Positions 60,001 through 63,000 of a DNA stretch of 64,000 bases are shown one piece after another. Made by a program: the position numbers. Numbering within the stretch: the stretch's first letter is position 1; each line of letters opens with the position of its first letter. Origin of the DNA: Escherichia coli (GTDB lineage: Bacteria > Pseudomonadota > Gammaproteobacteria > Enterobacterales > Enterobacteriaceae); NCBI RefSeq assembly GCF_001677475.2, contig NZ_CP015229.1; one strand, 5' to 3'.

Positions 60001-63000
60001 GGTTGGCAAGGGTGGGGCAATGCAAAACCTGGGTCAGGACGCCGCCACAAAGGTTAACTCTGGCGGGCAATATACCCTTGGGCGGTCAAAAGATGAGTTT
60101 CAGGCTCTGGCCCGGGCAGAAGATCTCCAGGTCACTGACGGGACGGCAATCGTCTACGCAGGTACGCTGGCGGATGCATCGGTCAGTGGCGCGACAGGAA
60201 GCCTGTCGTTAATGACGCCACGGGATAATGTTACGCCAGTTAAACTCGAAGGGGCGATCCGGATTACCGATAGCGCGACATTAACTATCGGAAATGGCGT
60301 CGATACGACGCTTGCCGATCTGACGGCTGTCAGCCGGGGCAGTGTCTGGCTTAACAGCAATAATTCCTGTGCAGGTACCAGCAACTGCGAATATAGAGTA
60401 AACAGTTTGCTACTCAACGACGGTGATGTTTATTTATCAGCGCCTGCCACAACTAACGGTATCTACAATACGTTGACCACCAATGAACTTTCCGGCAGCG
60501 GTAACTTCTACCTGCATACCAACGTTGCAGGCTCCCGGGGCGATCAACTGGTCGTCAGCAACAACGCCACTGGTAATTTTAAAATCTTTGTTCAGGATAC
60601 CGGCGTCAGCCCTCAGTCTGACGACGCGATGACGCTGGTGAAAACAGGGGGAGGGGATGCTTCGTTTACGCTGGGCAATACCGGCGGTTTCGTTGATCTT
60701 GGGACCTATGAGTATGTCCTGAAAAGCGACGGCAACAGCAACTGGAACCTGACCAATAATGTCAACCCAAACCCAAACCCAAACCCAAATCCGAACCCGA
60801 ACCCAAATCCGAACCCAAACCCGAACCCAAACCCAAACCCGAACCCGAACCCAAACCCGAACCCAAATCCAAACCCAAACCCAAACCCGAACCCAAATCC
60901 AGACCCGACTCCCGATCCAACGCCGACCCCCGTTCCGGAGAAACGCATCACGCCTTCTACGGCAGCTGTACTCAATATGGCAGCAACATTACCGTTGGTA
61001 TTTGATGCTGAGCTAAACAGTATTCGCGAGCGGTTGAACATAATGAAAGCGAGTCCACACAACAATAATATCTGGGGGTCGACGTATAACACCCGTAATA
61101 ATGTCACCACCGATGCGGGTGCCGGGTTTGAGCAGACGCTGACCGGAATGACAGTGGGGATCGACAGCCGTAATGATATTCCAGAAGGAATTGCCATGCT
61201 GGGCGCTTTTATGGGTTATTCCCATTCACATATCGGTTTTGATCGCGGAGGTCATGGCAGTGTGGGCAGTTATTCTCTGGGGGGCTATGCCAGTTGGGAG
61301 CATGAAAGTGGTTTCTATCTGGACGGTATCGTGAAGCTGAACCGTTTTGAAAGTAACGTAGCCGGTAAAATGAGCAGCGGTGGAGCCGCCAACGGCAGTT
61401 ATCACAGCAACGGGCTGGGCGGTCACATTGAAACCGGGATGCGATTTACCGATGGTAACTGGAACCTGACGCCGTATGCATCGTTAACGGGGTTCACCGC
61501 TGATAACCCCGAATATCATTTATCCAATGGTATGGAATCGAAATCAGTCGATACCCGCAGTATATATCGTGAACTGGGCGCAACGCTGAGTTACAACATG
61601 CGTCTGGGGAACGGTATGGAAGTTGAGCCGTGGCTGAAGGCGGCTGTGCGCAAAGAATTTGTCGATGATAACCGGGTGAAAGTGAATAATGACGGTAATT
61701 TCGTCAATGATTTGTCGGGCAGACGTGGAATATACCAGGCAGGTATTAAAGCCTCATTCAGCAGTACGTTAAGTGGGCATCTCGGGGTGGGGTATAGCCA
61801 TGGTGCCGGTGTGGAATCCCCGTGGAACGCGGTAGCTGGTGTGAACTGGTCGTTCTGACCATCAACGATTAAACTGCGCTTCGGCGCAGTTTTCGTTTAC
61901 AGGATGTTAAAAGGGAAAATTCTGGGGCAAAAAAAGCCCGCCAGTTACGGCGGGAAACCTCATCCTATGGGAGAACAATGAATAATGAAATTGCGGGGTT
62001 ATCATCTCCCAGTATATACACACTAACAATAAGGTTATTTACTCAACCAGGCATAAACATTTTGTTTTGTGCGTGGGAACAGCCTTAAGGTGTAAAGGGG
62101 GAGGTGGAAATAGCAATGAGGAGTATCAGCAAGAATACTCGCCGCTTTACCACAACGTGGATGAGAGGGATGAAAAACTCAAGGCAGAGATAACTCTGCC
62201 TTGAAGATAAATGCGCTTTAACAGCAGGCTTATTTCAGCTCTTCTGCTTCCGGTAAGGTCACGTTCAGCTCAAGAATAGAAATATCGCCATCTTTTTGCT
62301 CAAGCTGTACGGTTACCATCTCAGGATCAATTTGTACGTATTTACAAATGACCTCAAGAATATCTTTACGCAACTGCGGCAGATAATGCGGTTCTGCATC
62401 GCTGCGACGGCGTTCAGCAACAATAATCTGTAGCCGTTCTTTTGCAATGTTGGCTGTGTTTTTCTTCCGCGAGAGAAAGAAATCGAGTAATGCCATAACT
62501 TATCCTCCGAACAAGCGTTTGAGGAAGCCTTTCTTCTCTTCTTCAATGAAGCGGAAAGGACGTTCTTCTCCCAACAGACGTTCTACGGTATCTGCGTAGG
62601 CTTTACCCGCATCGGCGTTAATGTCGAGAATGACCGGTTCACCCTGGTTAGAGGCGCGCAAAACTGATTGATCCTCTGGGATCACGCCGACGAGTTTGAT
62701 GCGCAGGATCTCCAGCACATCTTCCATGCTCAGCATGTCACCTCTGCTTACGCGGCCTGGGTTATAGCGGGTTAACAGCAGGTGCTCTTTAATAGGCTCT
62801 TCGCCATTTTCTGCGCGGCGTGATTTCGACGCCAGAATGCCTAAAATACGGTCAGAGTCGCGTACTGAGGAGACTTCCGGGTTGGTGGTAATAATGGCTT
62901 CGTCTGCAAAATAGAGTGCCATTAACGCACCGGTTTCAATCCCTGCCGGGGAGTCACAAACGATAAATTCAAAATCCATCGCTTTCAGATCATCAAGAAC

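What the first reader, a model, noticed from the sequence alone, without database searches (positions are those of the whole stretch)
60764..60901. Hexanucleotide tandem repeat encoding an (Asn-Pro)23 linker in an intact autotransporter
Twenty-three 6-bp units encode a rigid NP-repeat spacer between the passenger domain and the beta-barrel. Such repeats are prone to slippage and could vary passenger length between strains. The gene is intact here (ORF-track product 1169 aa) although this locus is degraded in K-12 as I recall, and the neighbouring ycgH is frameshifted.
Basis: partly seen in the sequence, partly recalled or inferred. Interest (0 to 1): 0.35.

Follow-up and report, generated by a model that had tools for sequence, protein, structure and literature searches.

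The report
Variable Asn-Pro spacer in E. coli adhesin
A run of 23 six-base repeats encodes an Asn-Pro spacer between the stalk and the membrane anchor of an intact E. coli surface adhesin, and its copy number changes quickly between strains; this is a real but ordinary kind of feature.

Summary
Window 60764-60901 holds exactly 23 AAY-CCR units. They encode (NP)23, followed by a degenerate DPTPDPTPTPVP tail.

The array lies in an intact AIDA-type autotransporter gene. The likely product is 1126 aa from ATG 58478; the 1169-aa ORF over-extends upstream. In the structure model the array sits exactly between the last strand of the beta-helix passenger and the pore helix and barrel.

The gene occupies the ycgI locus, between ymgJ and minE. 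K-12 keeps only a 344-bp remnant there. About 422 of 5426 complete E. coli genomes hold most of the 5.3-kb locus region; some of those copies are IS-disrupted. The gene is a paralog of ypjA/ehaD, whose linker at the same position is a degenerate XP tract.

Copy number varies as predicted: 11 to 38 units in 21 alleles. Six porcine ETEC genomes with identical flanks carry 27, 32, 33, 34, 35 and 38 units. Almost all unit variants are synonymous.

Because the unit is 6 bp, this is a length polymorphism and not an on/off switch. Rigidity, expression and any phenotype are untested.

Verdict: a new member of a known kind, namely a length-variable proline-rich linker in a surface adhesin. Interest is modest.

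The parts
58478..61858 (+). Intact AIDA-type (type Va) autotransporter gene at the ycgI locus. It encodes 1126 aa and is a paralog of ypjA/ehaD. The open frame extends upstream to GTG 58349 (1169 aa).
   Evidence: ORF list and translation. Pfam hits: AIDA x6, Pertactin, Autotransporter beta-domain. PGAP start and flanking genes in orthologous loci. 80% amino-acid identity to K-12 YpjA over 1023 aligned positions.
58478..58567 (+). Probable signal peptide, MNRISRYYFHRSVLSLLISTMIYAPPGMTA.
   Evidence: Read from the sequence: basic N-terminus, hydrophobic core, M-T-A end. Residues 1-30 have pLDDT below 50 in the model. No signal-peptide predictor was run.
58574..60754 (+). Beta-helical passenger, residues 33-759. 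It includes the Pertactin-like junction (autochaperone) region, residues 641-759, nucleotides 60398-60754.
   Evidence: Six Pfam AIDA repeats and Pertactin PF03212. Continuous short beta-strands at 38-759 in the AlphaFold2 model. Pertactin, IgA1 protease and Hap structures match this junction region.
60764..60901 (+). The finding: 23 tandem AAY-CCR hexanucleotides encoding (NP)23, residues 763-808.
   Evidence: TRF, sequence, unit-by-unit listing. Copy number is 11-38 in 21 alleles.
60902..60937 (+). Degenerate 3' tail of the array, encoding DPTPDPTPTPVP (six xP units), residues 809-820.
   Evidence: Sequence. The same TPDPTPTP(VP) tail is present in K-12 YpjA, so it looks like the older, non-homogenised part of the XP linker.
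60953..61045 (+). Alpha-helical linker predicted to sit in the barrel pore, residues 826-856.
   Evidence: Helix 826-856 with pLDDT about 86-88. The solved BrkA translocator and Vag8 align from this point onwards.
61064..61855 (+). Outer-membrane beta-barrel translocator, residues 863-1126.
   Evidence: Pfam PF03797 and TIGR01414. Long antiparallel strands at 863-1125 in the model. BrkA structure 3qq2 matches at E 6e-24.
58449..61513 (.). Segment missing from K-12 MG1655. Its loss leaves the 344-bp ycgI pseudogene.
   Evidence: blastn of the window against NC_000913 1217000-1226500. The two flanks abut at locus position 6565, the start of the annotated ycgI pseudogene.
58095..61868 (+). Extent of paralogous DNA homology with the K-12 ypjA locus. 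It includes about 380 bp upstream of the start codon.
   Evidence: blastn of the window against L008 gives three pieces of 85-94% identity. The window gene lacks ypjA nucleotides 789-1430 and 2008-2589 in L008 locus coordinates.
54485..57132 (+). Neighbouring autotransporter pseudogene ycgH, frameshifted.
   Evidence: Two ORFs in different frames. The second carries AC_1, Pertactin and Autotransporter domains. There is a 1-bp gap near 54987 relative to other alleles. ycgH is annotated as a pseudogene in K-12 and PE164.

Best explanation
The array is the homogenised, length-polymorphic core of an alternating X-Pro linker. This linker tethers the beta-helical passenger of a surface-attached AIDA-type autotransporter adhesin to the helix and barrel that anchor it in the outer membrane.

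Shown here:
- The position of the array in the protein.
- The alternating X-Pro composition at the same position in the paralog YpjA and in an E. albertii homolog.
- Gain and loss of whole 6-bp or 12-bp units inside blocks of identical units, including between genomes with identical flanks.
- Near-exclusive use of synonymous variants.

Inferred:
- The changes arise by replication slippage or unequal recombination within perfect sub-runs.
- The tract is an extended, polyproline-II-like spacer, like other X-Pro tracts such as that of TonB. At about 0.31 nm per residue, the 58 residues here would span up to roughly 18 nm, and the observed alleles roughly 10 to 27 nm.
- It therefore sets how far the adhesive beta-helix stands off the membrane.

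Because the unit is two codons, slippage changes length only. It never changes the reading frame, so this is not an on/off phase switch.
For: Position: Pfam order AIDA repeats, Pertactin, array, Autotransporter. In the AlphaFold2 model the last passenger strand is 755-759, a low-confidence coil covers 764-819, a helix covers 826-856 and the barrel covers 863-1125. Solved translocators align only downstream of the array.

Family trait: K-12 YpjA has KPNPDPIPNPKPDPKPDPKPDPNPKPDPTPDPTPTP at the same place. The E. albertii homolog P0009 has (NPDPKPDPDPKP)x4.

Variation: 21 alleles carry 11, 15, 19, 20, 22, 23 (x4), 24, 25, 27 (x2), 29, 31, 32, 33, 34, 35, 37 and 38 units.

Speed and mechanism: six porcine ETEC genomes have 0 mismatches in 2400 bp of flanks but 27, 32, 33, 34, 35 and 38 units. 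The differences are confined to the (AATCCG AACCCA)n and (AATCCA)n blocks.

Constraint: of 554 units inside the arrays, 551 encode NP. The exceptions are two AAACCA units at the array edge and one AACCTA.

Compositional likeness to a known spacer: a weak TonB hit over residues 762-826.

Precedent: TibA has a proline-rich domain between its junction region and its membrane domain (PMC3835316).
Against: - No structure or biophysics supports 'rigid' or 'extended'. The model gives pLDDT of 34-47 and no secondary structure for the tract.
- There is no evidence that the gene is expressed.
- The locus is reduced to a remnant in about 92% of complete E. coli genomes, and the gene is interrupted by IS elements in several others. 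The protein is therefore dispensable, and length variation may have no phenotype.
- One allele with 23 units gives the identical protein, WP_096035176.1, in isolates from human blood, an Australian gull and a Scottish dog. Instability therefore depends on the allele.
- The window's allele has no perfect run longer than 4 units.
- The near-absence of non-synonymous units could partly reflect rapid homogenisation rather than selection.
Confidence: 0.78

Rival explanations
1. Adaptive reach tuning. Spacer length is under diversifying selection because it decides whether the passenger protrudes beyond the O-antigen or capsule layer. Slippage then supplies heritable variation in adhesion or aggregation, making this a dipeptide-scale analogue of periscope proteins.
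For: Copy number changes between otherwise identical genomes. The range spans more than three-fold. The NP coding is preserved. Length variation in surface stalks is known to modulate function in other adhesins (PMC9704523). From memory, capsule and O antigen can shield short adhesins such as Ag43 and AIDA-I.
Against: No phenotype, expression or serotype correlation was tested. The gene is lost or IS-disrupted in most strains. One clone keeps an identical array across continents. Neutral slippage explains the same pattern.
Confidence: 0.2
2. Neutral by-product in a decaying gene. The array expands and contracts because it can. The gene is silent or on its way to loss, and spacer length has no consequence.
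For: About 92% of complete genomes lack most of the gene. IS903B, IS1203, ISCro1, IS100 and ISEc62 insertions occur in others. The neighbouring ycgH has a different inactivating lesion in each of four strains examined. The upstream region is AT-rich, 36.6% GC against 51.3% in the gene. From memory, the K-12 paralog ypjA is cryptic under laboratory conditions.
Against: Where the gene is present it is usually an intact 1100-1160-codon frame. The units remain NP-coding in 551 of 554 cases. An X-Pro linker is kept at this position in the paralog and in E. albertii.
Confidence: 0.3
3. Assembly or sequencing artefact. The copy-number differences reflect mis-assembled repeats rather than biology.
For: One genome, LHM10-1, shows homopolymer-type errors inside the array and is annotated as frameshifted. 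Many database proteins of this family are truncated at contig ends. The array, at 66-228 bp, approaches short-read length.
Against: All differences among the other 20 alleles are whole 6-bp or 12-bp units that keep the frame. They are located in perfect sub-runs, as slippage predicts. Pairs of independent assemblies in the hit tables have equal match lengths. Three unrelated assemblies give the same protein accession. The records are complete genomes.
Confidence: 0.05
4. G-quadruplex-driven instability or regulation. The complementary strand, (GGGTTN)n, folds into G4 DNA on the template strand. This stalls polymerases, promoting repeat changes or damping transcription.
For: The only canonical G4 motifs (four G3+ tracts with loops of 1-7) in the whole 64-kb window lie in this array on the minus strand. 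The array plus tail contains 22 GGG tracts.
Against: The blocks that actually change between identical-flank genomes are rich in AATCCA and AATCCG units. Their complements, TGGATT and CGGATT, have only GG, so the most variable parts are the least G4-prone. CCC is simply what an AAC-CCN codon pair produces. No folding experiment or G4-aware energy calculation was done.
Confidence: 0.07
5. Immunodominant decoy. The repetitive NP tract acts as an antibody sink or variable epitope, as proposed for the NANP repeats of the Plasmodium circumsporozoite protein.
For: The tract matches circumsporozoite protein chains by composition (E about 1e-8). It is predicted to be surface exposed.
Against: The match is low-complexity only. 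The tract lies at the membrane-proximal base of the molecule, where LPS would be expected to hinder antibody access. Its sequence does not vary, only its length.
Confidence: 0.05

Closest known systems
YpjA / EhaD (E. coli K-12 b2647; EHEC EhaD), an AIDA-type autotransporter linked to biofilm formation
   Same: 80% amino-acid identity over 1023 aligned positions, and above 95% over the C-terminal two thirds. Same domain order, and an X-Pro linker at the same position ending in the same TPDPTPTPVPEKRITP. DNA homology includes about 380 bp upstream. RefSeq names this gene 'YpjA/EhaD'. YpjA is grouped with biofilm-forming autotransporter adhesins and has no published structure (PMC9289746).
   Different: A different chromosomal locus: ymgJ-minE rather than the region next to ssrA. 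The passenger is about 400 aa shorter. The linker is homogenised to pure NP and is length-polymorphic, whereas the K-12 YpjA linker is a degenerate mix of K, N, D, I and T before Pro with only 3 NP-coding units. It is therefore a paralog, not the ortholog.
Proline-rich domain of TibA (ETEC self-associating autotransporter)
   Same: An extra proline-rich segment, residues 627-677, lying between the junction region and the membrane-embedded domain. This is the same place in the architecture (PMC3835316). TibA-like proteins are sequence relatives at 33-35% identity.
   Different: No TibA-like hit has six or more consecutive X-Pro dipeptides, so the strict dipeptide array is particular to the YpjA branch. 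Copy-number variation of the TibA segment was not examined here.
TonB proline-rich spacer, (Glu-Pro)n (Lys-Pro)n
   Same: Alternating X-Pro dipeptides acting as a spacer between an anchor and a functional domain. There is a weak profile hit over residues 762-826 (E 8e-6). From memory, NMR studies describe the TonB tract as extended and fairly rigid.
   Different: The hit scores 25.9 bits against a cut-off of 315, so it reflects composition and not homology. The TonB tract is periplasmic and charged. This one is extracellular and uncharged, and it varies in length.
Periscope proteins (variable-length stalks of surface adhesins)
   Same: A repeat array at the base of a surface adhesin, with copy number varying between close relatives. 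Variation correlates with DNA repeat identity, and the proposed effect is on how far the functional domain projects (PMC9704523).
   Different: [quoted passage not shown] Here the repeat is a dipeptide with no fold of its own. It may work like a periscope stalk, but it is not a member of the class.
Polymorphic proline-containing repeats of Bordetella pertactin, (GGxxP)n and (PQP)n
   Same: In-frame short repeats in a classical autotransporter that differ in number between strains (from memory). The pertactin structure matches the junction region just upstream of the array (1dab, E 1e-17).
   Different: The pertactin repeats lie in or next to the passenger and are discussed as antigenic sites. 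Here the repeat is the tether itself and is much longer.

Membership tests
Classical (type Va) AIDA-type autotransporter | C-terminal 12-stranded beta-barrel translocator (PF03797) | tested here: met
   PF03797 at E 1.6e-46. TIGR01414 at E 1.3e-94. BrkA translocator structure at E 6e-24. Barrel strands at 863-1125 in the model.
Classical (type Va) AIDA-type autotransporter | Alpha-helical linker preceding the barrel | tested here: met
   Helix 826-856 with pLDDT of about 86-88. The defining role of the linker is taken from PMC9289746.
Classical (type Va) AIDA-type autotransporter | Beta-helical passenger with AIDA-type repeats and a Pertactin-like junction (autochaperone) region | tested here: met
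   PF16168 in six stretches at E 1.8e-87 and PF03212 at E 4.9e-47. Continuous beta-strands at 38-759.
Classical (type Va) AIDA-type autotransporter | N-terminal Sec signal peptide | tested here: inconclusive
   The sequence MNRISRYYFHRSVLSLLISTMIYAPPGMTA looks like a signal peptide. No signal-peptide predictor was available.
YpjA/EhaD ortholog group | Same chromosomal position as ypjA, next to ssrA/smpB | tested here: not met
   The window gene lies between ymgJ and minE. ypjA lies beside ssrA. Many genomes carry both places. It is a paralog.
YpjA/EhaD ortholog group | Full-length collinear similarity to YpjA | tested here: not met
   The C-terminal two thirds are above 95% identical. However, the passenger lacks two blocks of 642 and 582 bp, and the N-terminal part is only about 47% identical where it aligns.
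Variable-number tandem repeat (VNTR) locus | Head-to-tail repeats whose copy number differs between closely related isolates | tested here: met
   27 to 38 units among six genomes with identical flanks, and 11 to 38 units overall.
Phase-variable contingency locus (on/off by slipped-strand mispairing) | Repeat changes shift the reading frame or alter promoter spacing | tested here: not met
   The unit is 6 bp and lies inside the coding region. Twenty sampled alleles stay in frame. The one frameshifted record shows homopolymer-type errors, not unit changes.
Periscope proteins | [quoted passage not shown] | tested here: not met
   The definition is from PMC9704523. The repeat here is a dipeptide with pLDDT below 50 and no secondary structure.
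Periscope proteins | Repeat-number variation between related strains | tested here: met
TonB family | Score above the NCBIfam cut-off for TonB | tested here: not met
   25.9 bits against a cut-off of 315, limited to the X-Pro tract.

The most novel reading that the evidence does not exclude
The (NP)n tether is a fast-mutating length dial. Slippage in perfect sub-runs continually generates subclones whose adhesin stands 10 to 27 nm off the membrane. Selection by O-antigen or capsule thickness, or by host antibody, picks among them. This would extend the periscope principle to classical autotransporters through a dipeptide repeat rather than folded domains. As a by-product, the array would be a high-resolution typing marker within lineages such as porcine ETEC.
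Probability: 0.2. Interest if true: 0.5.

Novelty: new member of a known kind. Interest (0 to 1): 0.25.

Why it matters
If spacer length affects how far the adhesin projects, this locus would be a simple and genetically tractable case of length tuning in a Gram-negative autotransporter.

It also has practical consequences:
- The array changes between otherwise identical genomes, so it could serve as a fine-scale typing marker in the roughly 8% of E. coli that keep the gene.
- RefSeq labels this gene 'ypjA'. Adhesin surveys that count ypjA may therefore conflate two loci.

Otherwise it is an expected feature of a well-known protein class.

Tried and rejected
- Known MLVA locus? I asked whether the array is a known generic E. 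coli MLVA locus such as CVN014. That locus is scored in ST131, ST648, ST38 and others with small allele numbers (PMC3407997), whereas this gene is absent from most strains. I judged it a different locus but did not test primers.
- A literature name for the ycgI-locus gene. 'ycgI' with 'autotransporter' gave one irrelevant review. 'EhaD/YpjA' was swamped by unrelated hits. 'UpaI/UpaJ' gave nothing. AatB was considered, but from memory it is a small 1017-bp gene, and the paper was not held.
- The hit classes with 61% and 21% coverage looked like partial ycgI genes. They turned out to be ypjA-locus variants next to ssrA.
- The large protein search was hampered by its word prefilter, probably because of NP words. 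It returned many contig-end fragments and not the full-length orthologs. I used annotated genome loci instead.
- G-quadruplex-driven instability was considered and down-weighted.
- Periscope-protein and TonB membership were tested and not met.
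Full report
**Observation**

Tandem Repeats Finder reports a single array in 55000-64000. It spans 60764-60906, with period 6, 23.8 copies, no indels and a score of 195. Read directly, the sequence has 23 units of AAY-CCR at 60764-60901. Six degenerate xP units follow, up to 60937. In the frame of the long ORF 58349-61858 the region reads (NP)23 DPTPDPTPTPVP.

This frame is the real one. Pfam domains flank the array in the same frame: six AIDA repeats and a Pertactin-type domain upstream, and the Autotransporter beta-domain downstream. The other ORFs that cross the array encode GFGF..., TQTQ... and LGLGSG..., and are by-products of the repeat.

**The gene and its locus**

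Orthologous loci in RefSeq genomes show the same gene order: pdeG, ymgF, ycgH, ymgD, ymgG, ymgI, ymgJ, this gene, then minE, minD and minC. In those records the coding sequence starts at the ATG equivalent to window 58478. The product is therefore more likely 1126 aa than 1169 aa.

In K-12 MG1655 this position holds the 344-bp pseudogene ycgI, b4521. Alignment shows that K-12 lacks window 58449-61513.

A 5.3-kb query covering the gene and both flanks is at least 80% covered in 422 of 5426 complete E. coli genomes. About 8% of strains therefore keep a full-length copy, and several of these carry IS insertions in the gene.

The neighbouring ycgH is split into two frames in the window. It carries a different inactivating lesion in each of the four strains compared.

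The window itself is only about 98% identical to the best of the 5426 genomes over 14 kb of core genes. It therefore comes from a lineage that is poorly represented in that collection.

**Relationship to ypjA/ehaD**

RefSeq labels the gene 'adhesin-like autotransporter YpjA/EhaD', but it is a paralog.

- K-12 ypjA lies elsewhere, and strain MS6193 shows that place to be beside ssrA.
- Many genomes hold matches at both places.
- The proteins share 80% identity over 1023 aligned positions, and more than 95% over the C-terminal two thirds.
- DNA homology runs from 58095, about 380 bp upstream of the start codon, to 61868. The window gene lacks two ypjA blocks of 642 and 582 bp.

At the position of the NP array, K-12 YpjA has KPNPDPIPNPKPDPKPDPKPDPNPKPDPTPDPTPTP. 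An E. albertii homolog has (NPDPKPDPDPKP)x4. An alternating X-Pro linker is therefore a trait of this branch. At the ycgI locus its core has been homogenised to pure NP. More distant TibA- and Ag43-like hits show no run of six or more X-Pro dipeptides.

**Place in the protein**

An AlphaFold2 model built on a 32-sequence alignment has a mean pLDDT of 78.5. It gives:

| Residues (from ATG 58478) | Feature |
|---|---|
| 33-759 | beta-helix passenger |
| 764-819 | coil with pLDDT below 50, no secondary structure |
| 826-856 | helix |
| 863-1125 | barrel |

The array occupies residues 763-808 and its tail 809-820. The repeat therefore fills exactly the gap between the last passenger strand and the pore helix. 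Solved translocators (BrkA, Vag8) align only downstream of it. Pertactin, IgA1 protease and Hap align only upstream.

TibA is described as having a proline-rich domain at the same architectural position (PMC3835316).

**Variation between strains**

I read the array in 21 alleles from annotated complete genomes plus the window. Unit counts are 11, 15, 19, 20, 22, 23 (four times), 24, 25, 27 (twice), 29, 31, 32, 33, 34, 35, 37 and 38.

The clearest case is a set of six porcine ETEC genomes. They have no mismatch in 1500 bp upstream and 900 bp downstream of the array, yet carry 27, 32, 33, 34, 35 and 38 units. All differences lie inside the (AATCCG AACCCA)n block or the (AATCCA)n block. Gain and loss of whole units inside perfect sub-runs is what replication slippage or unequal exchange predicts.

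The match lengths in the two hit tables suggest many further lengths. Those counts are only approximate.

There is also a counter-example. Three unrelated isolates, from human blood, an Australian gull and a Scottish dog, carry the identical protein with 23 units. In addition, 45 of the top 60 hits share one match length. Stability therefore depends on the allele.

The window's array is among the most interrupted, with no perfect run longer than four units. It is probably one of the steadier alleles.

**Constraint on the coding**

Inside the arrays, 551 of 554 units encode NP. The variants are AAC/AAT and CCA/CCG. The exceptions are two Lys-Pro units at the array edge and one Asn-Leu unit.

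This fits purifying selection on the dipeptide, but rapid homogenisation could contribute to the same pattern. Because the unit is two codons, no slippage event changes the frame. The locus is therefore a length polymorphism and not a phase switch. The one frameshifted record, LHM10-1, shows homopolymer-type errors typical of sequencing noise.

**Mechanism and rivals**

The best-supported reading is an extracellular X-Pro tether whose length drifts by slippage. That it is extended or rigid is an inference from other X-Pro tracts such as TonB, to which it gives only a weak compositional hit. The model offers no support either way.

| Reading | Main support | Main weakness |
|---|---|---|
| Length is tuned by selection, for instance against O-antigen or capsule shielding | Rapid variation; precedent of length-variable stalks (PMC9704523) | No phenotype or serotype data |
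| The gene is a dispensable, decaying locus | Deleted in about 92% of genomes; IS insertions | Usually an intact frame where present |
| Copy-number differences are assembly artefacts | One noisy record; truncated database proteins | Clean whole-unit differences; agreement among independent assemblies |
| G4-driven instability | The minus strand of the array holds the only canonical G4 motifs in the 64-kb window | The blocks that change most are the AAT-rich ones, whose complements lack GGG |

**Comparison with what is known, and verdict**

The protein meets the tested defining features of a classical AIDA-type autotransporter. It is a paralog rather than an ortholog of YpjA/EhaD. YpjA is grouped with biofilm-forming autotransporter adhesins and has no published structure (PMC9289746).

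The array qualifies as a VNTR. It fails the defining feature of a contingency locus, because it causes no frame change. It also fails that of a periscope protein, because it has no folded repeat domains. It may nevertheless work like a periscope stalk.

I found no paper in the held library describing this array or naming the intact ycgI-locus gene. Length-variable proline-rich segments in autotransporters and other adhesins are, however, well known. I set it slightly lower, because the finding is confirmed but ordinary, and function remains untested.

Noticed in passing
window 54485-57132 (ycgH); L009 2602-5249; L001 1121-3783; L002 1124-3785: The neighbouring autotransporter ycgH is inactivated differently in each of four strains. 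The window has a 1-bp gap near 54987. K-12 has an in-frame stop at codon 507 and a 1-bp gap near the 3' end. PE164 has a 1-bp gap near 54840, and ETEC4069 a 2-bp gap near 54693. The window allele also differs from the other three by several in-frame indels. This suggests repeated independent decay.
   Followed up: partly
window 60766-60894, minus strand: The complement of the array, (GGGTTN)n, contains the only canonical G-quadruplex motifs in the whole 64-kb window, with 22 GGG tracts in the array plus tail. The most length-variable blocks in other strains are AAT-rich and lack GGG, so G4 formation is unlikely to drive the instability.
   Followed up: partly
window 58095-58477, including the small ORF 58294-58413: The duplication shared with the ypjA locus extends about 380 bp upstream of the start codon. 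It includes a 39-codon ORF that PGAP annotates as a hypothetical protein at both loci; it has no family hit. The upstream region has 36.6% GC against 51.3% in the gene.
   Followed up: partly
orthologous loci in hits H62, H72, H141, H143-H145, H149, H161: The ycgI-locus autotransporter gene is interrupted by different insertion sequences in several strains: IS903B, IS1203, ISCro1, IS100 and ISEc62. Together with the deletion in about 92% of genomes, this shows recurrent loss of the gene.
   Followed up: no
window 60706-61197 (-), 60759-61016 (+), 60762-60920 (-): ORFs of 163, 85 and 52 aa cross the array in other frames and encode GFGF..., TQTQ... and LGLGSG... tracts. They are by-products of the repeat, not genes.
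   Followed up: yes
window 40000-54000: Over 14 kb of core genes (purB, icd, mnmA, pdeG and others), the best of 5426 complete E. coli genomes is only 98.1% identical. The source strain therefore belongs to a lineage poorly represented among complete genomes.
   Followed up: partly
window 60641-60659 (AAAACAGGGGGAGGGGATG); proteins P0006, P0012, P0014: Large database clusters of truncated relatives (P0006 stands for 2180 sequences) end in a tail such as ...KTGEGMLRLRWAILAVSLILGPMSMS. That tail is what a 1-bp loss in this G5 run would produce. All 22 ycgI-locus alleles read here (21 clean plus the error-ridden LHM10-1), and K-12 ypjA, have G5. The truncated form must therefore belong to other strains or to other ypjA alleles.
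   Followed up: partly
L010 (MS6193) and L011 (O157:H7 Z1825), ypjA locus: The paralog ypjA is itself decayed in some strains. In MS6193 it is frameshifted and lacks its C-terminus. In this O157:H7 strain it is reduced to a 753-bp barrel fragment next to a recombinase remnant.
   Followed up: no
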